A stretch of DNA of 64,000 bases from a virus: IMG/VR virus record IMGVR_UViG_3300046001_006396, positions 17,928 through 81,927 of that record. One strand, given 5' to 3'. Made by a program: the position numbers and the translations under genes. Shown here piece after piece: positions 1-30,360 of this stretch (within the stretch, counting starts at the first letter, position 1; each line of letters begins with the position of its first letter). The notes below the pieces were generated by a model. The model worked only from the letters and a program-made list of their open reading frames with translations. It had not been told where the DNA came from and ran no database searches.

Positions 1-241
1 CATTTGTTACAAAAATGGAAGATGTAAAATCTATCCATTTATTACCTGATACGTCATATATAGAATAATTTTTTGCCGAATCCCAAACTATCGGTAGTTG
101 GTCGTTCATCGAATCAGGTTCATTTTTTATACAATCCATCAAAACACCTATAGTTTCAGGAGATGGTATATCTGTTAAAATTACCCTATTTTTTGTTTTT
201 ATTTTTGGACAATTTACGGGGTTTATGGAAAACTTAAACAT
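1..241 (-). CDS. Class III PLP-dependent aminotransferase, N-terminal part (runs off the window start)
   Basis: Not in the ORF track. Hand translation from the ATG at 241 gives MFKFSINPVNCPKIKTKNRVILTDIPSPET...LPIVWDSAKNYSIYDVSGNKWIDFTSSIFVTN, which matches the class III aminotransferase N-terminal pattern (D-x-x-G-N-x-W/Y-I-D-F-x-S). Confidence 0.75.
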   Translation of the reverse strand, partial: MFKFSINPVNCPKIKTKNRVILTDIPSPETIGVLMDCIKNEPDSMNDQLPIVWDSAKNYSIYDVSGNKWIDFTSSIFVTN

Positions 242-905: not shown

Positions 906-906
906 A

Positions 907-1707: not shown

Positions 1708-1708
1708 T

Positions 1709-2254: not shown

Positions 2255-2256
2255 AA

Positions 2257-6108: not shown

Positions 6109-6109
6109 C

Positions 6110-15430: not shown

Positions 15431-15457
15431 TATAAATACTACGATTAAAGTATTTAT
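15431..15457. promoter_or_regulatory. Back-to-back TATTTAT motifs (putative divergent late promoters)
   Basis: tataaata at 15431-15438 (TATTTATA on the minus strand) and tatttat at 15451-15457, in the 52-bp gap between divergent genes. Confidence 0.55.
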
Positions 15458-15469: not shown

Positions 15470-17344
15470 ATGCCGACCCAAAACATTAATAATTACTTTA
15501 AGACTAAATATCATTCAAAATTAGATAATAATCATTATTTTGATTTGACTTTAGCTTCGGACGAAAGAGACTACGATGAAGAAGTGGTCTTCTCTACCGA
15601 CATTATTGCATATAATGACGGAGACAGGCTACCAATATTAATTGATTTAAGTGATAGTAATACATCAATACAACCACTAATATCGTATGGTCAATATATT
15701 TCTGGAAACACTTTAGTTTCAAAAAATTATTATAACCCAAACAATTTAGATTTAACTTGTTTGTCGGCATTTACAGAAACTTGTGATATTGGTTTGGTTG
15801 GTACCGATAATGGTTTGTTCAGGACTATGTCAGGACAAACGTTATACTACACAATGGGTATTAGAAATGACTATAAATTTAATCCACATTATAGAGATAG
15901 AAGATTTAAAATGCATCCTGTAACAGGATACACCCAATCACCAAATGTTGTTTTTTCAGGTAGACCAAAAAACGTTTTATATAATATTGTTTCAGGAACT
16001 TCTGCGAACGTGACTTACTATCAGGAATTATACGGAGGGTTTTATCAAGGGTTTTATAAATTAAATGGGTATGATTACGAAGTTTTCCCTGAAAGGGTTA
16101 ACAAAGGATGGTCTGTTGAAATGATGCTTAGGCCAAGACGTGTTGATTTATATAGTTATAACCCACTAAGTCAACAATATTTAAATGATATCTACCCTGA
16201 AAATGAGGGAACATTTTTTTATTTTGGTACAAGATCGGAAAACAAATATTTTCATTATCCCGACGGAACAAATGACGGAGATAGTGGATACACAAGAGTA
16301 ACTTCAGGATTTACTTGTTTTGAAAGTTGTAAATGTTCAAATAGTGCGGTAACAAATGCTGACTGTGTTAGTGTTTATCCTGTTTCAGGAACAACTACAG
16401 AACATAATATTGGGTGTAATTGTGGTTGTGCGTCAACATACCAAGTTTCATTACCTGAAACTGATCCTAAATTTGACGTACTATCAAACGCTCTATCATT
16501 TAGATTTGATGGGTGTTCGGTTAATCCTAGTATCGCCGTTAAATATATAAAAATAACAGGAGATTGTGTAACAACAGGAACGTGTAGTACGACAGGAGTC
16601 ACATTCCAAACAGGATATACAATAAATGAAATTATCTCGCCACCAATATATAATATTTGTTCATATAACTGTAACGACGTTGTTGATGATAGATGGGTTA
16701 TGATAAGTGCGGTTTTTGAAAGATATGAATACTTAGAAGATTGTGATTTATTAAATAAAGGTGGAGTTAACGATTTATTGACTGTTACATACCAATCTTC
16801 AATTGATAAACAAAGTTATAAATTAATTTCACCTCCTGAAACACATTCAGGATCAACAATGGAACCAAAAATTTATAAAATAGATTTTAATAGAAAATGG
16901 TTTGATGAAATCAAATATAGGTTAGGAAAATTAAAAATTTATGTTAATGGATATCTATTAATGATTATTGAGGATTTTGAGGAAATAATACCTAGACAAT
17001 TAAATACGGAAAAAGAAAAACAAGTTGGTGTTCCTTTTAATATATCATTTGGGGGCGGGACTCAAGGTCTGCATGACCATCTAATATTTTCAGGTTGTTC
17101 ATTACCTAACGGACCATATGTACAGGACCCTGAATTATTTCCTACTGATATTTTATCTGCTACAACTTTAAGTGGTTTGAGTAGTGATATATTAATAGAA
17201 CAAAACTTTGGGGGGTCTTTTATGGGGGCAATTTCACAATTTAGAATGTATGTTGAACCTTTAAGTTCCCCACAAGTACAACATAATTTTAGAATATTAA
17301 AAGACAAATATAATCTATTAGATTATTGGTGTCCTGATTGTTAA
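15470..17344 (+). CDS. Putative virion structural protein (LamG/concanavalin-like beta-sandwich elements, Cys-rich)
   Basis: GWSVEMML, RWVMISAVF, KLKIYVNG and SFMGAISQFRMYVEPLS resemble LamG strands; rich in Ser/Thr/Gly and Cys. Confidence 0.55.
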   Translation: MPTQNINNYFKTKYHSKLDNNHYFDLTLASDERDYDEEVVFSTDIIAYNDGDRLPILIDLSDSNTSIQPLISYGQYISGNTLVSKNYYNPNNLDLTCLSAFTETCDIGLVGTDNGLFRTMSGQTLYYTMGIRNDYKFNPHYRDRRFKMHPVTGYTQSPNVVFSGRPKNVLYNIVSGTSANVTYYQELYGGFYQGFYKLNGYDYEVFPERVNKGWSVEMMLRPRRVDLYSYNPLSQQYLNDIYPENEGTFFYFGTRSENKYFHYPDGTNDGDSGYTRVTSGFTCFESCKCSNSAVTNADCVSVYPVSGTTTEHNIGCNCGCASTYQVSLPETDPKFDVLSNALSFRFDGCSVNPSIAVKYIKITGDCVTTGTCSTTGVTFQTGYTINEIISPPIYNICSYNCNDVVDDRWVMISAVFERYEYLEDCDLLNKGGVNDLLTVTYQSSIDKQSYKLISPPETHSGSTMEPKIYKIDFNRKWFDEIKYRLGKLKIYVNGYLLMIIEDFEEIIPRQLNTEKEKQVGVPFNISFGGGTQGLHDHLIFSGCSLPNGPYVQDPELFPTDILSATTLSGLSSDILIEQNFGGSFMGAISQFRMYVEPLSSPQVQHNFRILKDKYNLLDYWCPDC

Positions 17345-17354
17345 TACATTTAAT

Positions 17355-17708
17355 ATGGAATTTTTTATACAACAAAACTCAAGTTTACCAATCCTTAAAA
17401 TGGATGTGGTTAAAGACGGAAGAACAGATTCTACAATTAACCTATATGAAATATTGGATAATAGTAACATTAGATTTTCTATGAAAAATATTGATAATGG
17501 TACTCAAAAAATATTTATGCAACCAGCTTATCTAACGGAAAAAACTGGAATAAGTGATTACTCACCAAAAGAATATTACATTTATTATAAATGGGCACCA
17601 AAAGACACGAATAAAAAAGGGAGGTATGTAGGTGAATTTTTACTTGTATTGGAAAATGGAGAACTAATAACCCCAATACGAGAAAATTTATACATCAATA
17701 TTATTTGA
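17355..17708 (+). CDS. BppU-like virion/baseplate adaptor protein
   Basis: FFIQQNSSLPILKM...YKWAPKDTNKKGRYVGEF...PIRENLYINI resembles BppU N-terminal domains. Confidence 0.5.
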   Translation: MEFFIQQNSSLPILKMDVVKDGRTDSTINLYEILDNSNIRFSMKNIDNGTQKIFMQPAYLTEKTGISDYSPKEYYIYYKWAPKDTNKKGRYVGEFLLVLENGELITPIRENLYINII

Positions 17709-17795
17709 CATTTTAGGGTTTAAATCGTATTTATTAGGTAAGGGAAATCACATCTTAGTTGTGAGTATAATAACCCAAACTTAAAAAATATAATT

Positions 17796-20696
17796 ATGGT
17801 TCCACAAGAAGAAATTGAACGTTTTCTATTAGGAGAAGACGATGAAAAATATATCGTATCGTTAGAATACGATTACAAATCCTCAAAAATTTATAAAGTT
17901 ATTCAAGACCCCGTTAAAGGTAAACTTTTACGTATGGACACATTTATTCCATTTGCTTGGGTTGGTGACCTTAAAAGTAAAAACTTTTATAAGGGTAATA
18001 AAGACCTTCAAAAAAAGGCAATGTCTGAAAACGGCATCATCATAGAAAAATTAGAGGACAAGGGAGATGAAAGATTAAAGAGTGGTTTGACTTTTATGGT
18101 TAAATCTACCAAGTCGTATTCAAACCTTGTAAACTTTTTTAAAATGGGTGGACTTGACCCTTGGGGTAGGGATAATTCAGATGTGATTACAATTTTATCT
18201 CCTGTTGAACAATACCTAATCCAAAAAAGTAAAAGGTTATTTAAAGGGTTTGACGAATACGATGAGATTCACAGATTTGTATTTGATATTGAGACCACGG
18301 GTTTAGACCCAAAAACAAGTAAAATGTTTTTGATTGGGATGAAAGACAACCGTGGTTTTATAAAATTATTATCTGCACAAAACGAAGATGAGGAAAGACA
18401 AATGATTGTTGAGTTTTTTAGAACAATTGATGAATTAAAGCCGTCACTCATTGGTGGGTACAACTCGGCATTCTTTGACTTCCCATACATTTTAAAAAGA
18501 GCGGAAATATTAAAACTAAACATTAAAAAGATATCAAAAACTTTACATCCTGATTATTCTTTAAAACAAAAGGATGGAATTTTAAAGTTGGCAAATGAGA
18601 TGGAACCTTATGTTCAAACTCAAATGTGGGGATATAATATTGTTGATATTGCACACGCAGTTCGTAGAGCTCAAGCAATCAACTCAGATATTAAAAGTTG
18701 GTCCTTGAAGTATATAACCAAATTTATTGAAGCAGAAAAAGAAAATCGTGTCTATGTTGACGGTGATAAGATTGGTAAAATCTATTTTGATAATGAGGAT
18801 TATTGGATGAATAAAGAAAATGGTAATTATAAAAAGGTTGGTATTAATGAAAAAATAGATAGTATTTGTTCAAGAAGAGATGATGTCTATTTTAAAACTA
18901 ACGGTTCAAAAATTATTGAGGATTATCTTGACGATGACTTATATGAAACAATGGTTGTTGACGAACAGTTCAATCAAGCAAACTTTTTACTTTCTAAACT
19001 TGTACCAACAACATATGAAAGGCTATCAACAATGGGTACCGCCACATTATGGAAAATGATTATGTGTGCGTGGTCATATAAACATAATTTAGCAATTCCA
19101 AAGAAAAAAGAAAAACGAAAATTTACAGGAGGTCTTTCTCGTTTGGTTCAGGTTGGTTACTCAAGAAACGTATTGAAACTTGACTACTCGTCACTATATC
19201 CATCTATTCAGTTGGTTCACGATGTGTTTCCTTCTTGTGACGTTACGGGAGCGATGAAGAGTATGTTAAAGTATTTCCGTGATACTCGTATTAAATACAA
19301 GAACTTGGCTGGTGAATATAAATCAATAGACTTAAAGGCGTCAATTTCATATGATAGAAAACAGTTACCAATTAAAATCTTTATTAACGCATTCTTTGGT
19401 TCGTTATCCGCCCCTCACGTATTTCCTTGGGGTGATATTGATATGGGTGAACAGATTACTTGTACGGGTAGACAGTATCTTCGTCAGATGATTATGTACT
19501 TTATGAAACGAGGTTACGTTCCTTTGGTAATGGATACGGATGGTGTTAACTTTGAAACTCCTAAAGATAGGGAGACCTACACATATGTCGGTAAAGGATT
19601 AAACGGTTTGGTTAAACAGGGTAAAGAATATGTAGGTGCAGAAGCAGATGTTGCAGAATACAATGACTTATTTATGAGAAATGAAATGGGTCTTGATATT
19701 GATGGTGTATGGCCAGCAACTATTAACGTTGCCCGTAAAAACTACGCATTACTTACAGATAAAGGTAAAGTTAAACTTACAGGTAACTCAATTAAATCTA
19801 AAAAACTTCAAACATATGTTGCAGAGTTTTTGGATAAAGGATTAAGAATGTTACTTGATGGTAAAGGTGGAGAGTTTTTAGATTTCTATTATGAATATGT
19901 AAGTAAAATTTATAATAGAGAAATACCACTTGCAAAGATTGCAAATAAGGCCCGTGTTAAACAATCAATTGATGACTATAAAGTTCATGTCACAAAAACA
20001 ACCAAATCAGGAAGTTTAATGTCACGTCAAGCGCATATGGAACTTTTAATTAATAACGGTAAAAACCCAGGATTGGGTGATACTATCTTCTATGTTAATA
20101 ATGGTGAAAAGAAATCTCACGGGGACGTTCAAAAGAAAACAACCAAGATGACTAAAAAACAAATTGAGGATTACACAAATATTCACGGAGCGGTTCCACC
20201 TGAAATGTTATCAAAAAGTGAGGTTATTTTGAATTGTTATATGATTGATGAAAAAGAGATTGAAAACAATCCTGACTTGTTGGGTGAATATAATGTACCA
20301 AGATATTTGGCATCATTTAACAAAAGAATTGAACCCCTACTTGTTGTGTATAGTCCTGACATTAGACAAGACATTTTAATTGAGGACCCCAAAGACCAAC
20401 CAATATTTACTAAATCCCAAACAGAATTAGGAAGAGGGTTTCCGATGAAAGAAAAGGACCAAGATAACTTAGATGAGGTTTTGACTTTATCTGATATGGA
20501 AATTAACTTTTGGCAATCTGTTGGTATTGACCCGTATTATATGTACATAGACGATACCATTAATTTAGTGGATATAGATAGAGTTAATCACAATAATAAA
20601 TTAATGATTGAAACTAAAAGAGTTGAGAAGGTTGACGAGGACGATATCTTTGAATATGATGTAGATGGGGATTTAATGACCCACATTTTTGATTAA
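17796..20696 (+). CDS. Family B DNA polymerase
   Basis: FDIETTG, GYNSAFFDFPYI (exonuclease); LDYSSLYPSI (motif A), KIFINAFFG (motif B), MDTDG (motif C), RKNYA. Confidence 0.95.
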   Translation: MVPQEEIERFLLGEDDEKYIVSLEYDYKSSKIYKVIQDPVKGKLLRMDTFIPFAWVGDLKSKNFYKGNKDLQKKAMSENGIIIEKLEDKGDERLKSGLTFMVKSTKSYSNLVNFFKMGGLDPWGRDNSDVITILSPVEQYLIQKSKRLFKGFDEYDEIHRFVFDIETTGLDPKTSKMFLIGMKDNRGFIKLLSAQNEDEERQMIVEFFRTIDELKPSLIGGYNSAFFDFPYILKRAEILKLNIKKISKTLHPDYSLKQKDGILKLANEMEPYVQTQMWGYNIVDIAHAVRRAQAINSDIKSWSLKYITKFIEAEKENRVYVDGDKIGKIYFDNEDYWMNKENGNYKKVGINEKIDSICSRRDDVYFKTNGSKIIEDYLDDDLYETMVVDEQFNQANFLLSKLVPTTYERLSTMGTATLWKMIMCAWSYKHNLAIPKKKEKRKFTGGLSRLVQVGYSRNVLKLDYSSLYPSIQLVHDVFPSCDVTGAMKSMLKYFRDTRIKYKNLAGEYKSIDLKASISYDRKQLPIKIFINAFFGSLSAPHVFPWGDIDMGEQITCTGRQYLRQMIMYFMKRGYVPLVMDTDGVNFETPKDRETYTYVGKGLNGLVKQGKEYVGAEADVAEYNDLFMRNEMGLDIDGVWPATINVARKNYALLTDKGKVKLTGNSIKSKKLQTYVAEFLDKGLRMLLDGKGGEFLDFYYEYVSKIYNREIPLAKIANKARVKQSIDDYKVHVTKTTKSGSLMSRQAHMELLINNGKNPGLGDTIFYVNNGEKKSHGDVQKKTTKMTKKQIEDYTNIHGAVPPEMLSKSEVILNCYMIDEKEIENNPDLLGEYNVPRYLASFNKRIEPLLVVYSPDIRQDILIEDPKDQPIFTKSQTELGRGFPMKEKDQDNLDEVLTLSDMEINFWQSVGIDPYYMYIDDTINLVDIDRVNHNNKLMIETKRVEKVDEDDIFEYDVDGDLMTHIFD

Positions 20697-21025
20697 GAAT
20701 TTTTTAGACCGTCGGAGGATAGAATATACCAATATTCTCCGACTTTTTTAAACTCCACACAAGAACCTTTATCTAACTCAACCTCATTAAATTCCTCGTC
20801 TATTTTTTTATCACTACTAACAATAACATGAGTTAATGATTTAACGACAACGTGGTCTGTTGTATTTGAATCTAAAAATAAATTACAAGAATCAACACCT
20901 TTTACTATTATTGTATATTCACCATTTGTTGAGTAATCTCCGTTTGATAAAATAATAGAATCTGATGTTTTAATCTCATAACCATTAATGATTCTTAAAG
21001 ATGGTTGAGATCTAAAAATAGCCAT
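20693..21025 (-). CDS. Hypothetical protein (beta-rich, possibly virion-associated)
   Basis: 110-aa ORF directly downstream of the neck gene; WYILSSDG C-terminus. Confidence 0.55.
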   Translation of the reverse strand: MAIFRSQPSLRIINGYEIKTSDSIILSNGDYSTNGEYTIIVKGVDSCNLFLDSNTTDHVVVKSLTHVIVSSDKKIDEEFNEVELDKGSCVEFKKVGEYWYILSSDGLKNS

Positions 21026-21031
21026 AATAAA

Positions 21032-22150: not shown

Positions 22151-22159
22151 AAGACTTTT

Positions 22160-23278
22160 TTATATAAATATCTTTTTGGTTAAAATACTTTCATTCAATT
22201 TCTTTTTTGTTTGTGATAAGTATTGGTCTGAAACAAAATTCCAATTAACTACTTTCCAAAAATTATGAATATATTTGTCCCTTTCGTTTTTATATTTTAG
22301 ATAATATGCATGTTCCCACAAATCTAAACCAAGTAAAGGGTACCCCCCATTTTTTTCAGTATCCATTAACGGATTGTCTTGGTTAGGTGTTGTGACAATT
22401 TTTAAGTTATTAGTTTTATTAATAATTAACCATACCCACCCAGAACCAAATCTTGTCTTTGCAATTTCCTCAAACTTTTCTTTAAACTCTTCTAAAGACC
22501 CAAAAGTTTTTTCAATTTTAAATAATAGTGGGTTTTTTAATTCCGTTCTTTTAGGTGTTAACATTTTCCAAAATAATGCATGATTAAATGCGCCACCACC
22601 ATTATTTTTAACTTTTTTATTAAACTTTGATATTTTTTTTACGATATCAATTAAATCAAGGTCCTTTCCCGACATTTTTTCTAATTCTAAATTTAATTTC
22701 TCAACATACCCTTTATAATGTTTATTATAGTGAGTTTTCATAGTTTCATCATCAATAAACGACGATAAAGAATCAAACTCATAAGGTAGTTTTTCAATGG
22801 TAATTTTTTTTATTTCCGTAATGATGTTGGTTTTAGAAACCGAATCTTCGTTGATTAGTTTCTCTAATTCTTTAATTCTTTCATTAAACAATGAATAAAT
22901 GTTTTTTTCATCCTTTTTGTGTCTACGTTCAAATCTTTTTACCAATTCACCCGACCTTTCATTAGCCTTATTTTCGTTTTTACCCCCGATATCCGGACCC
23001 TTATCCATGTTTTCAATGGTTCTTTGGTACTCGTGAGCCCATTCGTGTGCTATAGTTCTAAGAATGTCTCTATTCATTCTATCTTTAACTAATATTTTTA
23101 TAATGTGTTTATTAGTTCTTGAACCCGTAGACATTTTACCATAACGAGATTTTAAAAATTCAATTGTAATATCTTTTTTTAATGGTAATTTTCTTTTTAA
23201 GAAACTGATAAAATTGTCTAATAATTGTTCGTCATCTGAATCAACGTTAAACCCAACAAATTTTTTATTTACTCTCAT
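22160..23278 (-). CDS. Fe/Mn superoxide dismutase fused to an N-terminal HExxH metallopeptidase-like domain
   Basis: C-terminal: LPY...HYNKHYKGY, NNGGGAFNHALFW, FGSGWVWL, NQDNP, DLWEHAYY. N-terminal: LRTIAHEWAHEYQ...ENKAN. Confidence 0.9.
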   Translation of the reverse strand: MRVNKKFVGFNVDSDDEQLLDNFISFLKRKLPLKKDITIEFLKSRYGKMSTGSRTNKHIIKILVKDRMNRDILRTIAHEWAHEYQRTIENMDKGPDIGGKNENKANERSGELVKRFERRHKKDEKNIYSLFNERIKELEKLINEDSVSKTNIITEIKKITIEKLPYEFDSLSSFIDDETMKTHYNKHYKGYVEKLNLELEKMSGKDLDLIDIVKKISKFNKKVKNNGGGAFNHALFWKMLTPKRTELKNPLLFKIEKTFGSLEEFKEKFEEIAKTRFGSGWVWLIINKTNNLKIVTTPNQDNPLMDTEKNGGYPLLGLDLWEHAYYLKYKNERDKYIHNFWKVVNWNFVSDQYLSQTKKKLNESILTKKIFI

Positions 23279-23290
23279 AATAAATAAATA

Positions 23291-25054
23291 TCACCTACCA
23301 CTATAAATCATATTTAACATTTCTTCTATTGATGACGCGTCATCCATCATATCATCCCCCATAACAGTAGATATTATTTTTTTCTTTCTATTTAAGATGT
23401 CATAAATCACACCCTCAATTGAGTTTTCAAATAGGGGGTAATAAACTGATGTTGATTTTTTTTGTCCAATTCTATGTGAACGGTCTTCTGCTTGTGCGTG
23501 TTCTGCAGGAACAAACGATAGATCATTCATAATAACCGCTTCAGCTGAAGTTAAAGTGATACCAACACCCGCAGCTTTTAAATTTCCAACAAAAACTCTT
23601 ATTTTATCGTTTTCTTGAAAATCGTCTACCGCCTTTTGGCGATGCGGTTTTGAACAAGACCCGTCTAAATAAACTGCCTGTTTTCCAAAATGTTCATAAA
23701 TAGTTCGTAACGTATCGGTAAAGTTTGTAAATATAATAACTTTTTTTCCTTGATCAATAATATTTTCTGCTAACTCAATAGTGTTTTTAACTTTTTCTTC
23801 TGCAATCACTTTTCTAACTTTCATTAATTTTCCAAATTGAATTGTGAGTGACGAAGACTCTTCTGAATTGTTGTCGTACCAATTAAAATATTCACCCATT
23901 AATTCTTCGTAATCTTTAGATTTTAATCTTAAATAAACAGGTGTAATAATTTTATCAGGTAAATCTAAAACATCTTCTTTTAATCTTCTAAGAATATGTG
24001 ACTGAGTTCGTTCCCTTAATTCGTCTAAGTTTGATGCCCCCGTAACATTCCATACTTTTCTTTTCCCAACACTAAATTGAAATCCGTTACAATATCTTCT
24101 TGCATAAGCCATCCAATTGGCGGCAACAGGACTTTCAACTAAACTTAAAAGATTAAAGTAGTTCATTGGTCTTGATGTCATTGGAGTTCCTGTTAATAAC
24201 CAAACCCTATCAAGTTTATCACAAATGTCGTTTACAATTTTTGTTCTTTGTGCTTGTGGGTTTGATATCATATGTGCCTCATCCATAATCAACAAATCAA
24301 ATTTTGTTTTTAAAATTATTGATTCTTCCTTCTTTTTTGGGTCATGGAAGTTTTTTAAAATATCATAATTAACAATTACAAAATCGTGTTGGTCTGAAAA
24401 CTTTTTGCCTTCTGAAATATAAACTGACCTATCAGAATAATTTTCAATCTCTCTTTGCCAATTTATCTTTAAAGATGCGGGACAAACAATTAATATTTTT
24501 TTTGCTCCCGATTCAAGTGCCGATATAATTGTTGAGGTTGTTTTTCCAAGACCCATGTCGTCCGCCAAAATAAACTTTTTGTTACCTACTAATTTATGAA
24601 TGGCTTCTTTTTGGTGTTCCATCGGAAGTCGGTGGTTGTACTTCTTATAATCAATAACAAAATCTTTTACTTCGTTATCTTTTATAAGTGCTGATTTTGG
24701 CATCCAAAAATCGTGTAATGTTTCACCACTAAATACTTTCCCCCAAATATGATACGACTTATCTTTTTCAACCAAAAGTTTTTCAACATAAATTTCTGTT
24801 GGTTCTTTTGTGTACATTTTATCCTCCATCATTTTTTTACCAAAATATGAATCAAGTTTGACCCATTTTTTTGCGACCTTTGGGGTTCTTCCGTGAAAGT
24901 TAATTACATATTCCGATTGAGATCTTGTAGGGGTAAAGGACTTACTATTTTGTTTTTTATGTTTTAAATTTAGGATATAGTTATTTGATCCATCATAATC
25001 ATCAATTAGTTGAAGGGCTCTTGTTTCAGGAGTTTTTGAAATAAATTCTTCCAT
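23291..25054 (-). CDS. SNF2-family DNA helicase/translocase (HARP/SMARCAL1-like)
   Basis: LADDMGLGKT, VCPASLKINW, DEAH, LTGTP, GVGITLT, QAEDRSHRIGQ. Confidence 0.92.
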   Translation of the reverse strand: MEEFISKTPETRALQLIDDYDGSNNYILNLKHKKQNSKSFTPTRSQSEYVINFHGRTPKVAKKWVKLDSYFGKKMMEDKMYTKEPTEIYVEKLLVEKDKSYHIWGKVFSGETLHDFWMPKSALIKDNEVKDFVIDYKKYNHRLPMEHQKEAIHKLVGNKKFILADDMGLGKTTSTIISALESGAKKILIVCPASLKINWQREIENYSDRSVYISEGKKFSDQHDFVIVNYDILKNFHDPKKKEESIILKTKFDLLIMDEAHMISNPQAQRTKIVNDICDKLDRVWLLTGTPMTSRPMNYFNLLSLVESPVAANWMAYARRYCNGFQFSVGKRKVWNVTGASNLDELRERTQSHILRRLKEDVLDLPDKIITPVYLRLKSKDYEELMGEYFNWYDNNSEESSSLTIQFGKLMKVRKVIAEEKVKNTIELAENIIDQGKKVIIFTNFTDTLRTIYEHFGKQAVYLDGSCSKPHRQKAVDDFQENDKIRVFVGNLKAAGVGITLTSAEAVIMNDLSFVPAEHAQAEDRSHRIGQKKSTSVYYPLFENSIEGVIYDILNRKKKIISTVMGDDMMDDASSIEEMLNMIYSGR

Positions 25055-25111
25055 TGTATTTAAATAAAAATAGTAAATAATAATAAATAATCAATCAAAG
25101 TATTTATTTAT

Positions 25112-25627
25112 ATGACACAAAATAGAGTTCCAATTACAAGACTTAATAAATTCTTCTCGGAAGAGGATTTCAATTTGGATATTGAAATGGGTGGTGAATG
25201 GTTACACGGCGATATGAATTTTACTTTAATACTTTATAGGGTTGATAGGCAAAGAACTGACAATGACGATGTATATGGTGAGACAACAGAAAACGGAATT
25301 CAGTATTTACCTCCAGTAGAATTTAAAGGTTTGGTTAAAATTGAGGCCTCATCAAACTCCGATTTAGGGGCATCAAAACTATATCAGTCAGAACCTGGCA
25401 ATTTAACTGTAAGTGTGTACCAACATTATTTAGAGGATTTAGGAATAGAAATAAATTTAGGAGATTATGTTGGGTATTATGAAACTGAAGATTTTGTTAG
25501 ATATTATTCTGTAGTAAACGACGGTAGGGTTTTCGGTGATAATAAACACACATACGCTGGATATAAAAGATTTTATAGAACAATAACTGCAGTTCCTGCA
25601 ACCAACAATGAATTTAACGGAATTTAA
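25112..25627 (+). CDS. Putative head-closure/neck protein (gp14-like)
   Basis: LYRVD...DDVYGE...GDYVGY pattern; sits directly before the tail terminator-like gene. Confidence 0.55.
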   Translation: MTQNRVPITRLNKFFSEEDFNLDIEMGGEWLHGDMNFTLILYRVDRQRTDNDDVYGETTENGIQYLPPVEFKGLVKIEASSNSDLGASKLYQSEPGNLTVSVYQHYLEDLGIEINLGDYVGYYETEDFVRYYSVVNDGRVFGDNKHTYAGYKRFYRTITAVPATNNEFNGI

Positions 25628-25629
25628 AT

Positions 25630-26859
25630 ATGGCGTTACCAAAACAAATAAAAAATAAATTATCCTTAATTCCACAAAAGTTTGGTGTTGAGAGAAGGCA
25701 AGAACTTTTAGAAGACGTTACAGATAAAGGTACTTATTTACCTAAAGGGGTTTTACATGCCGACCTTGACAAGGGAATGTTAGATTTTGTTAAAGACACT
25801 TTAGAGTTAGTTGTTGACAGTAAAAAAGTACCAACTATTGATAGAATCATAACAAACCAAAGTTGGGGCCAGTTTACTCAAACTTGGGATTTTCAAGATT
25901 TAGATAAAAATATTACATTACCTTTTATTGCAACATTAAGGGCGCCAGAAGTAAAATACGGAACAAATAATGCAGGAAGAGCTAATATTCCTGAAAGAAA
26001 ACAATTTTTTTATTATACGGTACCAACTTGGGACGGACAAAGAAAAGGTGCCGATGTTTATAAAATACCACAACCAATACCTGTAGATTTAACATTTACT
26101 ATAAAATTGTTCTGTAATAGAATGAGAGAAGTAAATGAGTTTAATAAAATTATGATGCAAAAATTTACATCAAAACAGGCGTATACACAAATAAAAGGAC
26201 ATTATATACCTATGACTCTTGAATCGGTTGATGACGAGTCGGTTAAAGATCTTGAAAAAAGAAAGTATTATATTTCAAGTTATAAAATTAATATGATGGG
26301 ATTACTGATTGATGAGGACGAGTTTGAGGTGAGTCCTGCAATAACAAGACAAGTATCTTTGTTTGAATTTGAAACATCTAAAAAAAGTAAAAAAGTTAAA
26401 ATAGAACCCTCTAACCCTACAGACTTTTTACTTGATTTTAAATTTGTTTCAGGAAACACCCAATTAATTGAAGTGTTTAGATACACTGCAAATATAGTTG
26501 TTAACGGAATTGAAAATATAATTAATTGTTTCTCGTCAGAATATTCATCAACAACAGTAAACACATTAAATTATATTAATTGTAGTGGAACTTCAACAAC
26601 AATTTCTACATCAATAGGAAGTAGTGGTACCGTATGTGTTAAATCAGGAACCGTACCGTATTTTACAAATTCAACAGGAGGAACTATTAACTCAACAACT
26701 TCCTGCGCTGATGGGTATTCTGTTTTTATTAATAACAATTATGTTGGTGATAATGTTGATGTGATTCAAATAAATTCCGGAGACACTTTAAAAATAATTG
26801 TTTATAAAGATAATGTTAATTTAGAATCAATTATTAAGACAAAAGTAATATTGGTTTAA
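25630..26859 (+). CDS. Putative tail terminator/sheath stabiliser (gp15-like) with C-terminal extension
   Basis: IPQPIPVDLTFTIKLF...EVNEF pattern; located between neck and sheath genes. Confidence 0.55.
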   Translation: MALPKQIKNKLSLIPQKFGVERRQELLEDVTDKGTYLPKGVLHADLDKGMLDFVKDTLELVVDSKKVPTIDRIITNQSWGQFTQTWDFQDLDKNITLPFIATLRAPEVKYGTNNAGRANIPERKQFFYYTVPTWDGQRKGADVYKIPQPIPVDLTFTIKLFCNRMREVNEFNKIMMQKFTSKQAYTQIKGHYIPMTLESVDDESVKDLEKRKYYISSYKINMMGLLIDEDEFEVSPAITRQVSLFEFETSKKSKKVKIEPSNPTDFLLDFKFVSGNTQLIEVFRYTANIVVNGIENIINCFSSEYSSTTVNTLNYINCSGTSTTISTSIGSSGTVCVKSGTVPYFTNSTGGTINSTTSCADGYSVFINNNYVGDNVDVIQINSGDTLKIIVYKDNVNLESIIKTKVILV

Positions 26860-27009
26860 CTACTCCCCATATACGTCTTTTTCTTTTACGCAGGTTTTTT
26901 TAATTAAAGTTTCTAAGAATTTATAAATCTTTAATCCCTTTGACTCACAGTACTTTTTTAGTATATCGTGACTTTCTTCTGAAATCTTTATATTTTTTAT
27001 TTTTTTCAT
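26860..27009 (-). CDS. Small ribbon-helix-helix-like DNA-binding protein (49 aa)
   Basis: Not in the ORF track. Hand translation: MKKIKNIKISEESHDILKKYCESKGLKIYKFLETLIKKTCVKEKDVYGE*, a beta strand (KNIKIS) plus helix-G-helix; TATTTAT motif at 27014-27020. Confidence 0.65.
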   Translation of the reverse strand: MKKIKNIKISEESHDILKKYCESKGLKIYKFLETLIKKTCVKEKDVYGE

Positions 27010-27147
27010 ATTAATAAATATTTTATAAGGTAGAAAAAAGGTAGAATTTTTTCATACTGTTAATTTATTAATATAATTAGACTAAGTTTTTTGCCCATTT
27101 TGGACATATTTATATAAGAAAATAAATCATAATATAAAAACAAAAAA

Positions 27148-30100
27148 ATGGCATCTACTAACAAAGTATTCGTTTCACCTGGAGTCTACACTTCAGAAAG
27201 AGATTTGACTTTTGTTGCTCAAAGTGTAGGGGTAACAACATTAGGTTTGGTTGGGGAGACACTACAAGGTCCTGCGTTTGAACCAATCTTTATAACAAGT
27301 TTTGATGAGTATCAAGTATACTTCGGGGGGACAAGTCCTGAAAAATTTGTAAATACACAAATACCAAAATATGAAACATCGTATATTGCTAAAGCATATC
27401 TACAACAATCAAATCAGTTGTTTGTTACTAGAATATTAGGGTTATCGGGATACGATGCGGGACCATCTTGGTCAATTACAACTATAGGTAATGTTAATCC
27501 TAGTACTGTTTCGGCAACAGGAAATACAGGACCTGTTTATGTGTTCTTTACAGGTACAACAGGAGCAAGTTCAAACGTAACAATAACAAACATACCATCT
27601 CAATTAACGACATTTAATAATACATATTTACAATTTAATGGTAATACTTCAAGTATTTCTACAAATTTTAAAACGTTTATTGCGAATGAAATAAATAAAT
27701 ATACAACATCAGGACTTCAATCAGGTACAGGAACAACTGCTCAGTTTTGGGGAACTTTAAGTGCGGGTACACTTTCTTTAGTGACGGGGACATCTATTAA
27801 CCCTGGAGGTATTACGGCAACTTCTGAAACATTTGGTGTAAGTAACGTTAATCTTTCTTTAGCGAATTTATCGGCATCAACTAACGACCCTTGGTACTAC
27901 GCATTATTTAATTATAGTAAACCTGCAAGTGTTGGTTCATATTACGGTTATGGATTTGGTACTCGTTTAAATACTTTAACGAGTATTGGTGGTGGAGTAT
28001 ATTCTGGATCATGTGCGGTTTATTTAACAAACTATTCGGGTTCACCATACAGTGATTTTGATGATTTGGTAATAGCAACTCTTAGATCAAGAGGAGTCAC
28101 TAACTATTCCTCAACACAACACGGACCATCTTATCAAGTTACAGGAACATCCGACGTTACTTTAATTACAACAGGAACTTACTCAGGAATTTCTTCTGAC
28201 CCGTATAATACTTTTGCTGTTAGTGGCATCACTAAAGATGGTGACACATTTACATTTGAAACTTCAATGACAAGTTCAGACACTCAATATCTTTCTAAAG
28301 TTTTAGGTAGATCTAATTTCTCTAAAGATAGAACTGAAGTTCCTATTTTTGTCGAGGAGATTTATCCAAGTCTTTTACTAAGCGGATATAGAGCAGGAAA
28401 AGTTAGAGGATTATATTCTAATTTAGTTGCCCTTGATAGTGCGGAATCTTTAGACACTAATTCATTAGGTTTTTATTTGGAGCAATATCAAACACCTGAA
28501 ACTCCTTACGTCGTTTCAGAATTAAGAGGTAACAAAGTCTATAAATTATTTAAATTTAAACTTATTTCTGACGGTAATGCGGCAAATAGATTAGTTAAAA
28601 TTTCAATTGGTAATATCTCATTTAATACTAGAACGTTTGATGTATTCATTAGAGATTTCTATGATAATGACCAAAATGTTAGAGTTATTGAAAGTTTTAC
28701 TAACTGTTCATTAGACCCTAATTTGAATAATTACGTTGCAAATAAAATAGGTACAGCAAACGGAGAATACAATCTTAACTCAAAATATGTTATGGTTGAA
28801 ATGAACGATGAAGCACCTGAAGATGCACTTCCTTGTGGTTTTGATGGGTACGTTATACGTTCTTATGATACGGCAACCCCACCTTACTTGGTTTATAAAA
28901 CTAAATATTTAACACCTGGAGAAACAATTTACAATCCTCCTTTTGGGTCAACAAGTGGGGCGGATAATCCTGTAATTTCTAACGGTGAAAATCCTCGTAA
29001 GGCTTACTTAGGTATTTCAAATATCACTGGAGTTGACTACGATTTCTTTGACTATAAAGGTAAAGTGTTACCAGCTAACCTTGAAACGGATACAACAGGT
29101 CTTGATTGGAATTATATTACTAAAGGGTTCCACATGGATAGTGGGGCAACTGTTGTAACAATTATGGGTTCAGGTGCGACCGCAGGTCAACCGGCATTTG
29201 AAGTTGGTGTTGGGTCATTTAATTCTGAACCAACAAGTACTGATAGTCCTTATTACAAATTAAACACTCGTAAATTTACTTTATATGCTTATGGAGGTTT
29301 TGATGGTTGGGATATCTATAGAGAATATAGAACTAATGGTGACACCTACGCACTTGGTCAAACAGGGTTTAAATTTGGAGCGGCACCATCATCTACATAC
29401 CCAACAGCAACAGGATGGGGAGCATTTAAACAAATCTCAGGACCTAACCAAGAGGTTTGGGCAAATACTGACTATTACGCATACAAGTGGGGTCAAGGAA
29501 CTTTTGCAAATCCTGAAGCAACAAACATTAATATTTTTGTAACACCAGGAATTGATTACGTAAATAACTCAAATCTTGTTGAAGATGCGATTGATATGGT
29601 TGAATCTGATAGAGCCGACTCAATCTATATTTGTACAACACCTGACTTTAATCTATTCTTACCAACATTTAGTGATGTCACAGAAGGGTTAATCTACCCA
29701 CAAGAGGCAGTTGACAACCTAGAAGAAACGGGTATTGATTCAAATTATACCGCATCTTATTACCCTTGGGTATTAACAAGAGATAGTGTAAACAATACAC
29801 AGATTTATCTTCCACCAACTGCTGAGGTTACTAAAAACTTAGCGTTAACCGATAACATCGCATTCCCTTGGTTTGCATCTGCAGGATACACAAGAGGTTT
29901 GGTTAATTCAGTTAAAGCTCGTAAGAAGTTAACACAAGAAGATAGAGACACACTTTACAAAGGTAGAATTAACCCAATTGCAACGTTCTCTGATGTAGGT
30001 ACTGTAATTTGGGGTAACAAAACAATGCAAATTAGAGAATCTGCACTTGACAGAATTAACGTAAGAAGACTGTTGTTACAGGCTCGTAAATTAATTTCAG

Positions 30101-30360
30101 CGGTAGCGATTAGATTATTGTTTGAACAAAACGACGACAAAGTAAGACAAGATTTCTTAGATTCCGTTAATCCAATTTTGGATTCAATTAGAAGAGATAG
30201 AGGTTTGATTGACTTCCGAGTTACAGTTTCAAACACACCTGAAGATTTAGACTCAAACACATTGACAGGTAAAATCTTCTTGAAACCGACAAGAGCGTTG
30301 GAGTACATTGACATAGAGTTTGTTATTACACCAACAGGAGCATCTTTTGATGACGTATAA
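27148..30360 (+). CDS. Contractile tail sheath protein
   Basis: SPGVYTSERD N-terminus; PWFASAGYTRG, RINPIATF, WGNKT, RINVRRLL, KPTRALEYIDIEF C-terminus. Confidence 0.95.
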   Translation: MASTNKVFVSPGVYTSERDLTFVAQSVGVTTLGLVGETLQGPAFEPIFITSFDEYQVYFGGTSPEKFVNTQIPKYETSYIAKAYLQQSNQLFVTRILGLSGYDAGPSWSITTIGNVNPSTVSATGNTGPVYVFFTGTTGASSNVTITNIPSQLTTFNNTYLQFNGNTSSISTNFKTFIANEINKYTTSGLQSGTGTTAQFWGTLSAGTLSLVTGTSINPGGITATSETFGVSNVNLSLANLSASTNDPWYYALFNYSKPASVGSYYGYGFGTRLNTLTSIGGGVYSGSCAVYLTNYSGSPYSDFDDLVIATLRSRGVTNYSSTQHGPSYQVTGTSDVTLITTGTYSGISSDPYNTFAVSGITKDGDTFTFETSMTSSDTQYLSKVLGRSNFSKDRTEVPIFVEEIYPSLLLSGYRAGKVRGLYSNLVALDSAESLDTNSLGFYLEQYQTPETPYVVSELRGNKVYKLFKFKLISDGNAANRLVKISIGNISFNTRTFDVFIRDFYDNDQNVRVIESFTNCSLDPNLNNYVANKIGTANGEYNLNSKYVMVEMNDEAPEDALPCGFDGYVIRSYDTATPPYLVYKTKYLTPGETIYNPPFGSTSGADNPVISNGENPRKAYLGISNITGVDYDFFDYKGKVLPANLETDTTGLDWNYITKGFHMDSGATVVTIMGSGATAGQPAFEVGVGSFNSEPTSTDSPYYKLNTRKFTLYAYGGFDGWDIYREYRTNGDTYALGQTGFKFGAAPSSTYPTATGWGAFKQISGPNQEVWANTDYYAYKWGQGTFANPEATNINIFVTPGIDYVNNSNLVEDAIDMVESDRADSIYICTTPDFNLFLPTFSDVTEGLIYPQEAVDNLEETGIDSNYTASYYPWVLTRDSVNNTQIYLPPTAEVTKNLALTDNIAFPWFASAGYTRGLVNSVKARKKLTQEDRDTLYKGRINPIATFSDVGTVIWGNKTMQIRESALDRINVRRLLLQARKLISAVAIRLLFEQNDDKVRQDFLDSVNPILDSIRRDRGLIDFRVTVSNTPEDLDSNTLTGKIFLKPTRALEYIDIEFVITPTGASFDDV

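What the first reader, a model, noticed from the sequence alone, without database searches (positions are those of the whole stretch)
15470..30360. Recurrent [S/T]-[G/A]-x-T motif in virion proteins: candidate phage O-glycosylation sequon
Seen: the structural ORFs repeat one short motif. 15470 ORF: SGNT, SAFT, SGQT, TGYT, SGYT, SGFT, SGTT, TGVT, SGST, SATT. Tail terminator: SGNT, TGGT, SGDT. Sheath: TGNT, TGTT, SGIT, SGAT twice. It also occurs in the 2008-aa protein (SGTT), the 2137-aa protein (SGST) and the 59044 ORF (TGFT, TGNT, TGGT, SAFT, SGNT). By eye it is scarce in PolB, the helicases and RNR. It is not a tandem repeat and is spread over unrelated folds. Inference: it is an acceptor sequon for the phage's own glycosyltransferases, different from the Bacteroidota host sequon D-[S/T]-[A/I/L/V/M/T]. 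This would make a writer-plus-sequon virion glycan shield.
Basis: partly seen in the sequence, partly recalled or inferred. Interest (0 to 1): 0.85.

Follow-up and report, generated by a model that had tools for sequence, protein, structure and literature searches.

The report
Threonine motif on jumbo-phage virion proteins
A short serine/threonine motif really is written far too often into a few outward-facing proteins of this large uncultured phage and its relatives, next to conserved sugar-adding enzymes, so it may be a sugar-attachment signal, but no chemistry has tested that.

Summary
In the window it is strongly enriched only in the 624-aa ORF 15470-17344: 12 sites against 0.7-0.95 in 5000 shuffles, and 12 forward against 2 for the reversed motif. 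ORF 59044 is moderately enriched (7 vs 2.2). The sheath and ORF 25630 are marginal. The 2008-aa and 2137-aa proteins, tube, hub and baseplate J show nothing.

The signal holds across the lineage. An unbiased scan of a-b-x-c patterns over the tail/fibre module of a 292-kb relative ranks SG.T, SA.T and TG.T directly behind PT-linker patterns, while 209 other ORFs fall below expectation. T4 and a Flavobacterium myophage show no such excess.

The motif acts at protein level (diverse codons). Its hydroxyl residues are kept more often than other Ser/Thr. Sites are gained and lost. Position 1 lies in coil in 11 of 12 sites. A full-length homolog has no sites at all.

A GT2_5-GT4 fusion and a probable GT-B gene lie upstream in every relative with enough flank, so co-occurrence cannot discriminate.

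I rate an O-glycosylation acceptor motif the best single reading (about 0.4). A loop-to-strand structural motif is the main rival. Earlier notes of this scan report similar G-x-T motifs on other phage DNA.

The parts
15470..17344 (+). 624-aa LamG/ConA-like jelly-roll protein and main carrier of the motif. It has 12 [ST][GA]xT sites starting at residues 78, 99, 121, 152, 272, 279, 292, 306, 375, 381, 460 and 563. The DNA starts are 15701, 15764, 15830, 15923, 16283, 16304, 16343, 16385, 16592, 16610, 16847 and 17156.
   Evidence: Counts and shuffles. Family conservation. AF2 model with pLDDT 84. Fold neighbours. Atlas neighbours.
15451..15457 (+). TATTTAT element 13 nt upstream of the ORF 15470 start. 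The same element lies 1-60 nt upstream of the neck, sheath, tube, 33057, 35045 and 59044 genes. It is a candidate late-promoter element (inference).
   Evidence: 14 of 47 genes carry it, against about 1.3 hits expected if uniform. Upstream sequences were read.
59044..63999 (+). Protein of at least 1652 aa, open at the window end, directly after baseplate J. It has DUF5122 beta-propeller repeats and 7 motif sites.
   Evidence: 7 sites vs 2.2 expected, p 0.007-0.009. 7 forward v 1 reverse. Pfam DUF5122, E 1.6e-44.
27148..30360 (+). Tail sheath, 1070 aa, with 8 motif sites. All lie at residues 124-678, outside the conserved C-terminal core. The enrichment is marginal.
   Evidence: PHROG tail sheath hits on residues 790-1067. 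8 sites vs 3.5 / 4.25 expected, p 0.025 / 0.056. 8 forward v 3 reverse. Orthologs: 10 v 5 and 9 v 2.
25630..26859 (+). It has 3 motif sites; the enrichment is marginal.
   Evidence: 3 sites vs 0.5 / 1.05 expected, p 0.014 / 0.075. No PHROG or NCBIfam hit. The G001 ortholog gives 5 forward v 1 reverse.
8672..10309 (-). 545-aa fusion of Glyco_tranf_2_5 and GT4 domains. It is the lineage-conserved glycosyltransferase at the inner edge of the sugar cassette and a candidate initiating 'writer' (inference).
   Evidence: Pfam E 8.4e-29 and 4.7e-11. A tblastn hit in 61 of 80 loci, and the 19 without a hit have at most 5,478 nt of upstream sequence. Found in 21 of 21 further loci with at least 6.8 kb upstream.
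11636..12850 (-). 404-aa probable GT-B glycosyltransferase, conserved 2.6 kb upstream of ORF 15470. It is a second candidate writer (inference).
   Evidence: No Pfam hit in the window copy. Weak NCBIfam HpsO hit, E 0.003. The G001 ortholog hits Glyco_trans_1_4 at E 3.5e-4. Present in 72 of 80 loci.
234..8671 (-). Variable part of the sugar cassette: cytidylyltransferase, methyltransferase, 241-aa MptE-like protein, GT10, GT11, hexapeptide acetyltransferase, DegT aminotransferase and two short GT2 genes.
   Evidence: Pfam results. Content varies among relatives: tblastn hits for MptE-like in 2, GT10 in 6, GT11 in 17, DegT in 9 and GT2b in 24 of 80 loci (flanks are limited to 10 kb).

Best explanation
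[S/T]-[G/A]-x-T, preferentially with a hydrophobic residue before it and at x, is a protein-level motif kept by selection. It marks a subset of late, probably outward-facing virion proteins of a widespread aquatic T4-like jumbo-phage lineage. The carriers are the LamG-like ORF 15470 above all, the DUF5122 baseplate-distal protein, fibre-like proteins of relatives, and weakly the sheath insertion.

Most likely it is the acceptor motif of a phage-encoded cytoplasmic O-glycosylation. A lineage-conserved transferase would put the first sugar on an exposed Ser/Thr of the folded or folding protein. The candidates are the GT2_5-GT4 fusion at 8672-10309 and the GT-B-like gene at 11636-12850. The small residue at +1 and the Thr at +3 would serve as recognition determinants. 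The variable cassette (fucosyltransferase families, CMP-sugar synthetase, aminotransferase, acetyl- and methyltransferases) would extend the glycan.

Shown here: the enrichment, its direction-specificity, its restriction to certain proteins and to this lineage, conservation and turnover of sites, coil location of position 1, and synteny with the transferase genes.

Inferred: that the proteins are virion-surface proteins, that the motif is read by a transferase, and which residue is modified.
For: Statistics:
- ORF 15470 has 12 sites against 0.70 / 0.95 expected; 0 of 5000 shuffles reach 12.
- In that protein [ST]G.[^ST] is 3 observed vs 6.2 expected and [^ST]G.T is 1 vs 3.0, so the three fixed positions are tightly coupled.
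- Forward v reverse is 12 v 2.

Family:
- 248 homologs carry 2831 sites against 365 expected.
- The 12 sites are kept in 50-120 of 120 homologs, with S/T and G/A swaps and a free x.
- Motif Ser/Thr are retained at 0.81 and motif Thr at 0.74, against 0.56 and 0.43 for other Ser/Thr (p 0.009 and 0.002).
- Extra lineage-specific sites arise at other positions.

Other proteins of the lineage:
- In the 292-kb relative G001 the ORF 15470 homolog leads the ranking. The other top-enriched ORFs are mutually unrelated fibre-module proteins (17 vs 2.0, 25 vs 5.6, 8 vs 0.86 and so on).
- Their orthologs in G002 are enriched again at 47-62% identity.
- An unbiased enumeration over 41 tail-module ORFs ranks SG.T, SA.T and TG.T third to fifth, behind TP.P and PT.T. 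In 209 other ORFs the four patterns total 21 observed vs 35.6 expected.

Controls:
- 35 T4 proteins show no excess.
- 25 structural proteins of a Flavobacterium myophage give 57 forward v 58 reverse.
- N-x-[ST] and D-[ST]-[AILVMT] are at expectation.
- 15 distinct codon pairs occur among 30 sites.

Not needed for the fold, and exposed:
- Homolog P0147 (43% identical, full length) has 0 sites, with TGVT replaced by TETF and TGYT by ENYV.
- When the motif is lost, position 1 becomes mostly E, D, P or N and position 2 mostly S, N, E, T or D.
- Position 1 is in coil in 11 of 12 sites of the pLDDT-84 model.

Writers: conserved transferase genes lie 2.6-5.2 kb upstream in all relatives with enough flank.

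Precedent: Thr in Gly-Pro-Thr triplets is the acceptor of SgtA (abstract and sections 3.2-3.3 of PMC7157674).
Against: - There is no chemical evidence of any glycan on any protein.
- Co-occurrence is non-discriminating. No relative lacking the transferases could be found, and the genomic context of the motif-free homologs P0147 and P0166 could not be retrieved.
- The variable C-terminal extensions of ORF 15470 homologs, presumably the most exposed parts, are not enriched: 63 observed vs 57.8 expected over 10,423 aa.
- In 5 of 12 sites a beta strand starts within or right after the motif. Thr at +3 is replaced by S, I or V when lost. These are features of a structural loop-to-strand element.
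- Some sites lie in repeats where the motif is part of a fold consensus: TGGT hairpin repeats and SprB repeats.
- No SgtA-like GT2-TPR enzyme was found. The MptE-like protein is only 241 aa, far shorter than a Maf.
- The capsid protein of relatives has only 3-5 sites. At one of them T4 has N-G-S-T, so G-x-T there is older than the lineage.
- The cassette could serve another target.
Confidence: 0.4

Rival explanations
1. The motif is a structural loop-to-strand element, an ST-turn-like cap with a small residue followed by a beta-branched Thr that opens a strand. This lineage's beta-rich virion proteins favour it. It is unrelated to the sugar genes, which serve another purpose.
For: - In the pLDDT-84 model a strand begins within or right after the motif at 5 of 12 sites (78, 99, 121, 306, 375). 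One further site lies inside a long hairpin strand.
- Position 1 is replaced by D, N and P, which are classic turn residues. Position 4 is replaced by S, I and V, which are strand residues.
- Part of the excess in relatives comes from TGGT hairpin repeats and SprB repeats.
- At one capsid site T4 already has N-G-S-T.
- Extension domains are not enriched, as expected if the motif belongs to particular folds.
Against: - A generic structural preference should also appear in T4 and Flavobacterium-phage structural proteins, and it does not.
- It occurs in proteins without detectable similarity to each other.
- A full-length homolog folds, by sequence conservation, without a single site.
- Gly/Ala at position 2 is replaced by E, N or D in homologs, so a small residue is not demanded by packing.
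- E is the commonest replacement at position 1 (50 cases), and it is not a typical turn cap.
Confidence: 0.3
2. The motif is read by something other than a glycosyltransferase. This could be another modification of Ser/Thr (phosphorylation, for example) or recognition by an assembly chaperone. Alternatively the motif itself could be a binding element of lectin-like proteins.
For: - Selection acts at motif level, with turnover of sites.
- The motif is restricted to late or virion-type proteins.
- ORF 15470 has a lectin-like jelly-roll fold.
Against: - No kinase or other candidate writer was seen in the annotated window.
- The only conserved enzymes next to the main carrier are glycosyltransferases, dUTPase and an exonuclease.
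- The sites are dispersed over the whole protein rather than clustered in one pocket.
Confidence: 0.12
3. The pattern is a chance or composition artefact of Ser/Thr/Gly-rich proteins, picked post hoc by eye.
For: - For the sheath and ORF 25630 the excess is not significant under local shuffles (p 0.056 and 0.075).
- The pooled tail/neck ORFs without ORF 15470 give 23 forward v 15 reverse (p 0.13).
- The two giant proteins are at expectation.
Against: - ORF 15470: 0 of 5000 shuffles reach the observed count.
- The reversed motif, with the same composition, is not enriched.
- Unbiased enumeration recovers the same patterns in ORFs that were not chosen by the motif.
- The result is replicated in a second genome.
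Confidence: 0.03

Closest known systems
SgtA-BclA3 of Clostridioides difficile: a GT-A plus TPR transferase that puts beta-O-GlcNAc on Thr of Gly-Pro-Thr triplets (PMC7157674; abstract, sections 3.2-3.3 and passages read)
   Same: A soluble transferase modifies Thr two residues after a Gly in a surface structural protein. [GA]-x-T is contained in the motif found here. The transferase gene lies next to the substrate gene.
   Different: - The motif here needs Ser/Thr before the Gly/Ala.
- It is dispersed in globular and beta-rich proteins, not in collagen-like triplet arrays.
- No GT2-TPR enzyme was found: the GT2 frames are 232-291 aa, and Pfam found no TPR in those scanned.
- This is a phage, not a spore.
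Maf-type flagellin O-glycosylation with nonulosonic acids (PMC11339370, passages read)
   Same: - Cytoplasmic O-glycosylation of surface-exposed Ser/Thr of a structural protein.
- The window has an MptE-like (DUF115) protein and a CMP-sugar cytidylyltransferase.
- Maf sites lie near hydrophobic residues. Here hydrophobic residues are enriched at -1 and at x.
   Different: - That paper states that no conserved sequon is known for Maf.
- The window protein is only the 241-aa central domain.
- It is part of the variable cassette, with a tblastn hit in 2 of 80 loci, so it is unlikely to be the conserved writer.
Mycobacteriophage virion glycosylation (Freeman et al. 2023). I know it only from the summary in PMC12619734 (passage); the paper itself is not held.
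   Same: Phage-encoded glycosyltransferases are thought to decorate the phage's own virion proteins.
   Different: - In that system the glycans sit at the C-termini of capsid and tail-tube subunits.
- Here the tube has no site, and the candidate sites are internal and dispersed in other proteins.
- That system is shown chemically; this one is not.
Bacteroidota general O-glycosylation sequon D-[S/T]-[A/I/L/V/M/T]
   Same: A three- to four-residue O-glycosylation motif with a methyl-bearing or small residue after the acceptor.
   Different: - It is a different motif. D-[ST]-[AILVMT] is at expectation in these proteins.
- By recall, the host system works outside the cytoplasm.
LamG / concanavalin A-like jelly-roll proteins of phages (BFVD models, including two 'virion structural protein' entries of Synechococcus phage S-PM2)
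   Same: The fold of the C-terminal half of ORF 15470. Foldseek E values are 3e-5 to 1e-3 against BFVD. The PDB hits are lectin-like receptor-binding modules and CBMs at E about 2e-3. A LamG_3 cluster is among the Atlas neighbours.
   Different: - TM-scores are low (0.13-0.23 on the query).
- There is no Pfam hit.
- The N-terminal 400 residues and the Cys-rich insert have no match.

Membership tests
SgtA-type protein O-GlcNAc transferase system (GT2 + TPR, Gly-x-Thr acceptor) | GT-A (GT2) catalytic domain fused to C-terminal TPR repeats (358 aa in SgtA) | tested here: not met
   The PF00535 frames in G000, G001 and G002 are 232-291 aa, plus the 490-622-aa GT2_5 fusions. Pfam found no TPR in the window GT2 proteins or in the G001 269-aa GT2. 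TPR families were not searched genome-wide.
SgtA-type protein O-GlcNAc transferase system (GT2 + TPR, Gly-x-Thr acceptor) | Acceptor Thr in Gly-x-Thr triplets of a collagen-like region | tested here: inconclusive
   The motif contains [GA]-x-T but is dispersed and needs Ser/Thr at -1: [^ST]G.T is 1 observed vs 3.0 expected. The collagen-like protein of G001 has G-T-S / G-T-N triplets, not G-x-T.
SgtA-type protein O-GlcNAc transferase system (GT2 + TPR, Gly-x-Thr acceptor) | Sugar demonstrated on the Thr | not testable with these tools
   This needs mass spectrometry or in-vitro transfer.
Maf flagellin nonulosonic-acid glycosyltransferase system | MptE-like / DUF115 central domain | tested here: met
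   PF01973, E 6.4e-12, residues 15-183 of the 241-aa protein at 3174-3899.
Maf flagellin nonulosonic-acid glycosyltransferase system | Three-domain enzyme with N-terminal Rossmann-like and C-terminal helical domains (described in PMC11339370) | tested here: not met
   The protein is 241 aa, and the MptE-like match fills residues 15-183. It has no match to PDB sequences.
Maf flagellin nonulosonic-acid glycosyltransferase system | CMP-activated nonulosonate donor pathway | tested here: inconclusive
   A CTP_transf_3 cytidylyltransferase is present (E 4.5e-23). The synthase lies upstream of the window and I know it only from earlier unchecked notes.
Bacteroidota general O-glycosylation | Sequon D-[S/T]-[A/I/L/V/M/T] enriched or used in the target proteins | tested here: not met
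   Forward and reverse counts are similar in all window ORFs of at least 400 aa. For example, ORF 15470 gives 0 v 2 and ORF 59044 gives 1 v 2.
Mycobacteriophage-type virion glycosylation | Glycans on the C-termini of the major capsid and tail-tube subunits | tested here: inconclusive
   The tube (31550-32038) has no motif site. The capsid gene is outside the record. Relatives' capsid proteins have 3-5 internal sites. Glycans as such cannot be tested.
LamG / ConA-like jelly-roll proteins (fold of ORF 15470) | Jelly-roll beta sandwich recognisable by profile or fold | tested here: inconclusive
   There is no Pfam, PHROG or NCBIfam hit. Foldseek hits to ConA-like and LamG-like models reach E down to 3e-5, but TM is 0.23 or less on the query. 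An Atlas neighbour cluster has LamG_3 in 36% of its members.

The most novel reading that the evidence does not exclude
A defined four-residue O-glycosylation sequon, hydrophobic-[S/T]-[G/A]-x-T, is written into exposed loops of adhesin- and fibre-like virion proteins of a globally distributed aquatic jumbo-phage lineage. A conserved cytoplasmic initiating transferase reads it (the GT2_5-GT4 fusion or its GT-B neighbour). A hypervariable sugar cassette extends the glycan. Each phage strain would then display its own glycan on a conserved set of sites. This would be the first sequence-defined protein O-glycosylation code of a bacteriophage.
Probability: 0.35. Interest if true: 0.85.

Novelty: new variant of a known kind. 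Interest (0 to 1): 0.6.

Why it matters
Phage-encoded glycosylation of the phage's own particle has been shown chemically only for a few systems, and without a sequence rule. If this motif is an acceptor signal, glycosylated sites of uncultured phages could be predicted from sequence.

It would also explain why large aquatic phages carry big, fast-changing sugar-gene islands without export genes. And it would offer a soluble transferase with a short tag for glyco-engineering.

The test is direct: co-express the 624-aa protein with one or two neighbouring genes and weigh it.

If the motif is instead structural, it is a lineage-specific loop-to-strand signature of little wider consequence.

Tried and rejected
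- **Tandem or long internal repeats as the source in ORF 15470.** The 12 contexts share nothing beyond the motif. Rejected.
- **DNA-level oligomer bias.** Eight codons occur at position 1 (both Ser codon families), seven at position 2, and 15 distinct hexamers among 30 sites. Rejected.
- **A generic property of phage tail or fibre proteins.** T4 (35 proteins) and a Flavobacterium myophage (25 proteins) show none. Rejected.
- **Other sequons.** N-x-[ST] and D-[ST]-[AILVMT] are at expectation.
- **Co-occurrence of motif and transferases.** All 61 of 61 IMG/VR loci with at least 5.5 kb upstream, 10 of 10 further IMG/VR loci with upstream flank (the 11th, L126, has none) and 21 of 21 metagenome loci with at least 6.8 kb upstream have the GT2_5-GT4 gene, and all have motif-rich homologs. 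The test has no power.
- **Context of the motif-free homologs P0147 and P0166.** Nothing closer than 46% (IMG/VR) or 54% (metagenomes) identity was found for P0147, and nothing for P0166.
- **First AF2 model (42 sequences).** It had pLDDT 55 and was too poor to place the sites. A 75-sequence alignment gave pLDDT 84.
- **Solvent accessibility.** It could not be computed, because model coordinates are not returned.
- **Sequence searches.** PDB searches with the GT-B-like and MptE-like proteins gave no hit. ORF 15470 has no tblastn match in 50,697 deposited phage records, and the 14.9-kb region has no megablast match.
- **Literature.** Five full-text searches listed no paper describing an [ST]-[GA]-x-T glycosylation motif or a sequence-defined O-glycosylation motif in a phage. 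I read only listings and the passages cited. Supplements were not asked for. Kuenenia S-layer work proposes G-[T/S]-X (PMC5088730, passage), which is a different register.

Full report
**What the window is.**
The window is bases 17928-81927 of an 81.9-kb uncultured virus record, with 26-35% G+C. It runs as follows:
- Minus-strand sugar cassette at 234-10309: cytidylyltransferase, methyltransferase, a 241-aa MptE-like protein, GT10, GT11, hexapeptide acetyltransferase, DegT aminotransferase, two short GT2 genes and a GT2_5-GT4 fusion.
- dUTPase, an exonuclease, a probable GT-B gene (11636-12850) and four small unknown genes.
- The divergent 624-aa ORF 15470-17344, then PolB, a helicase, a neck protein, a SOD fusion, the sheath, the tube and a baseplate hub.
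- Two giant proteins, then replication genes (DnaB-like helicase, class II RNR), gp25, baseplate J and an ORF of at least 1652 aa with DUF5122 repeats.

The sheath is T4-like and below 60% identical to anything in 50,697 deposited phages. A relative of 291,867 bp is rated 99% complete. The lineage is therefore a jumbo myovirus of about 290 kb, and the 13% completeness given for this record looks too low.

**The observation in the window.**
Against 5000 composition-preserving shuffles, global and within 40-residue blocks:
- ORF 15470: 12 sites vs 0.70 / 0.95; no shuffle reaches 12.
- ORF 59044: 7 vs 2.2 / 2.3 (p 0.007 / 0.009).
- Sheath: 8 vs 3.5 / 4.25 (p 0.025 / 0.056).
- ORF 25630: 3 vs 0.5 / 1.05 (p 0.014 / 0.075).
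- 2008-aa and 2137-aa proteins: 2 vs 2.9 and 3 vs 2.85.

The reversed motif T.[GA][ST] has the same composition. It gives 2, 1, 3, 1, 6 and 4 in the same proteins. The tube, hub, ORF 33057, gp25 and baseplate J have no site. All non-tail ORFs together give 7 forward and 7 reverse.

Inside the window, then, the claim holds firmly for one protein, fairly for a second, and not for 'virion proteins' at large.

**How specific the motif is.**
I enumerated all residue triples a-b-x-c in ORF 15470. SA.T, SG.T and TG.T came out among the top four.
- Of 15 [ST]G dipeptides, 9 have Thr and 3 have Ser at +3.
- [ST]G.[^ST] is 3 observed vs 6.2 expected.
- [^ST]G.T is 1 vs 3.0.
- [ST]S.T is 0 vs 0.64.

The sites use 8, 7 and 4 different codons at the three fixed positions. 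The constraint therefore acts on the protein, not the DNA.

**The family of ORF 15470.**
The protein has no Pfam, PHROG or NCBIfam hit and no match in deposited phages. It has more than 1249 metagenomic homologs at E 1e-3 or better among 8000 scored candidates. In a 50%-clustered library it matches 721 representatives.
- 248 homologs of at least 300 aa carry 2831 sites against 365 expected.
- The 12 sites are kept in 50 to 120 of 120 close homologs. Ser/Thr and Gly/Ala swap, and x is free.
- In a 75-sequence alignment, motif Ser/Thr are retained at 0.81 and motif Thr at 0.74. Non-motif Ser/Thr and Thr are retained at 0.56 and 0.43 (p 0.009 and 0.002). Gly/Ala are no better kept than elsewhere.
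- Among 61 distinct cores, further sites appear at places where the window protein has none: query residues 63, 118, 163, 177, 232, 402, 541 and 568. Cores carry 7 to 20 sites.
- Against this, the variable C-terminal extensions of 79 of 80 loci examined are not enriched: 63 vs 57.8 over 10,423 aa. One locus lacked the anchor peptide.
- The motif is dispensable. P0147 (607 aa, 43% identical over the full length) has no site, with TGVT replaced by TETF and TGYT by ENYV. P0166 has one site.
- When sites are lost in 91 aligned homologs, position 1 becomes E (50), D (29), P (29) or N (18). Position 2 becomes S, N, E, T or D. Position 4 becomes S (88), I (33) or V (27).

**Structure.**
A first model was poor (pLDDT 55). 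A deeper alignment gave pLDDT 84 and pTM 0.85.
- Position 1 is in coil in 11 of 12 sites, while 59% of the model is coil.
- At 5 sites a strand begins within or just after the motif.
- One site lies in a long hairpin strand.
- Four sites lie in loops of lower confidence.
- Fold searches give only weak matches to lectin-like jelly rolls. These include phage LamG-like proteins and two S-PM2 entries named virion structural protein. The Atlas agrees.
- Longer homologs add LRR or LamG_3 modules.

A TATTTAT word lies 13 nt before the start codon. The same word lies 1-60 nt upstream of 14 of 47 genes, among them neck, sheath, tube, 33057, 35045 and 59044, against about 1.3 hits expected if uniform. 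I read this as a late, probably virion-surface, binding-type protein. That reading is inference.

**The lineage beyond the window.**
I scanned all 301 ORFs of the 292-kb relative G001.
- The ORF 15470 homolog is the top hit (14 vs 1.15).
- Next come fibre-module proteins at 54-72 kb: 17 vs 2.0, 25 vs 5.6, 21 vs 5.4, 8 vs 0.86, 14 vs 3.7 and 11 vs 2.9.
- The gene just downstream of the homolog has 7 vs 1.5, the sheath 10 vs 3.45 and the capsid protein 5 vs 1.14.
- BLAST finds almost no similarity among these proteins. Two have SprB repeats and some have TGGT hairpin repeats.
- I excluded one 2919-aa collagen-like protein. The proteome then has 233 forward and 116 reverse sites, and the 281 ORFs with fewer than 5 sites have 45 and 58.
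- An enumeration over the 41 ORFs starting at 50-115 kb, chosen by position rather than by motif, ranks SG.T, SA.T and TG.T third to fifth, behind the linker patterns TP.P and PT.T. In 209 remaining ORFs the four motif patterns total 21 against 35.6 expected.
- In G002 (270 kb) the orthologs are enriched again at 47-62% identity: 15 v 1, 11 v 1, 7 v 0 and 9 v 2.

The controls differ. Among 35 T4 proteins, including all tail and fibre proteins, no structural or fibre protein shows an excess that matters. For example, gp34 has 1 vs 4.15, gp37 has 7 vs 3.3, and the lowest p among them is 0.03 for gp24. The 25 structural-module proteins of a Flavobacterium myophage give 57 forward, 58 reverse and 39.6 expected. 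N-x-[ST] and D-[ST]-[AILVMT] are at expectation in the window. In 87 sites of non-repetitive proteins, hydrophobic residues are raised at -1 (56% vs 35%) and at x (52% vs 35%).

**Writers.**
Gene order around ORF 15470 is fixed in the lineage.
- The GT2_5-GT4 fusion gives a hit in 61 of 80 IMG/VR loci. The 19 without a hit all have at most 5,478 nt of upstream sequence.
- It is also present in 21 of 21 metagenome loci with at least 6.8 kb upstream.
- The GT-B-like gene is in 72 of 80 loci.
- The outer cassette genes vary: MptE-like in 2, GT10 in 6, GT11 in 17 of 80.

This fits a conserved initiating enzyme plus variable extension. The context of the motif-free homologs could not be obtained. 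No GT2-TPR enzyme of the SgtA type and no full-length Maf is present.

**Weighing the readings.**
Chance is excluded for ORF 15470 and for the lineage's tail module. Two readings remain.

The sequon reading explains four things. The same short motif is selected in unrelated proteins of one lineage only. It can be lost entirely without loss of the protein. A small residue is demanded at a position where homologs tolerate Glu. Transferase genes are fixed neighbours.

The structural reading explains three things. Many sites sit at loop-to-strand junctions. Thr at +3 alternates with Ile or Val. Extension domains are not enriched.

I put the sequon at 0.4, the structural motif at 0.3, another motif-reading process at 0.12 and artefact at 0.03. 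The rest is unassigned.

**Relation to known systems and to this scan.**
Thr two residues after Gly is the proven acceptor of C. difficile SgtA on BclA3 (PMC7157674). Maf enzymes modify exposed Ser/Thr near hydrophobic residues without a known sequon (PMC11339370). Mycobacteriophage virions carry glycans on capsid and tube C-termini (as summarised in PMC12619734). The present case shares the logic of these systems but meets the defining features of none.

Earlier unchecked notes of this scan report G-x-T-type motifs in virion proteins of other uncultured T4-like phages. They gave me the SgtA lead, and I do not count them as evidence. Five literature searches listed no paper on this motif.

Noticed in passing
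window 17345-17795, and the same slot in loci L002-L081: The distance from the ORF 15470 homolog's start to the next conserved gene (unk17355, before PolB) varies from about 1.9 kb to 11 kb among relatives. The homolog gains C-terminal extensions (LRR, LamG_3), or extra genes are inserted. One such gene is a 241-aa protein with TGGT hairpin repeats in G001. This is a hypervariable slot typical of receptor-binding genes.
   Followed up: partly
window-wide; e.g. 15451-15457, and upstream of 27148, 31550, 33057, 35045, 59044 and 22150(-): TATTTAT lies 1-60 nt upstream of 14 of 47 genes, mostly tail and neck genes. PolB has a TATAAT-like word and 49819 a TTGACA-like word upstream (I did not look at 48889 for these). 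TATTTAT is a candidate late-promoter element.
   Followed up: partly
G001 181308-190067 (loci L096-L097): A 2919-aa protein made almost entirely of Gly-Thr-Ser / Gly-Thr-Asn collagen-like triplets, with a TGGT-repeat head. It gives 612 hits to the reversed motif and had to be excluded from the totals.
   Followed up: no
proteins P0147 and P0166 (homologs of ORF 15470): These are full-length or near full-length homologs with 0 and 1 motif sites. Acidic residues stand where the motif stands elsewhere, and in P0147 the Cys-rich insert (query residues about 265-330) is deleted. Their genomes could not be retrieved.
   Followed up: partly
window 15470-17344, residues 287-397 and 621-624: The protein is rich in invariant cysteines (C287, C289, C299, C318, C366, C372, C397, C425) and ends in C-P-D-C. 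The stretch C-V-T-T-G-T-C (366-372) is invariant or nearly so. HY.D occurs three times (HYFD, HYRD, HYPD) and is the top-scoring triple in the protein. This suggests disulfides or metal sites; it was not examined.
   Followed up: no
G001 142564-143373 and G002 about 102846-103196: A short GT2 glycosyltransferase (269 aa in G001; a 291-aa open frame in G002) sits within about 10 kb of the major capsid protein gene, away from the sugar cassette. It is another candidate for a protein-directed transferase.
   Followed up: partly
window 22160-23278 (-): Pfam confirms a complete Fe/Mn superoxide dismutase (residues 160-351) behind a 155-residue N-terminal extension, beside the neck gene.
   Followed up: partly
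whole record G000: CheckV-type completeness is given as 13% for 81.9 kb. A syntenic relative of 291.9 kb is rated 99% complete. The record is more likely about 28% of a genome of about 290 kb.
   Followed up: no
G001 60282-61907 and 169964-170812: Long Pro-Thr linkers ((PT)n and PTGTT repeats) occur in fibre-module proteins and in one other protein. TP.P and PT.T are the top patterns in the tail module. Such linkers are classic O-glycosylation targets in other organisms (recalled).
   Followed up: no
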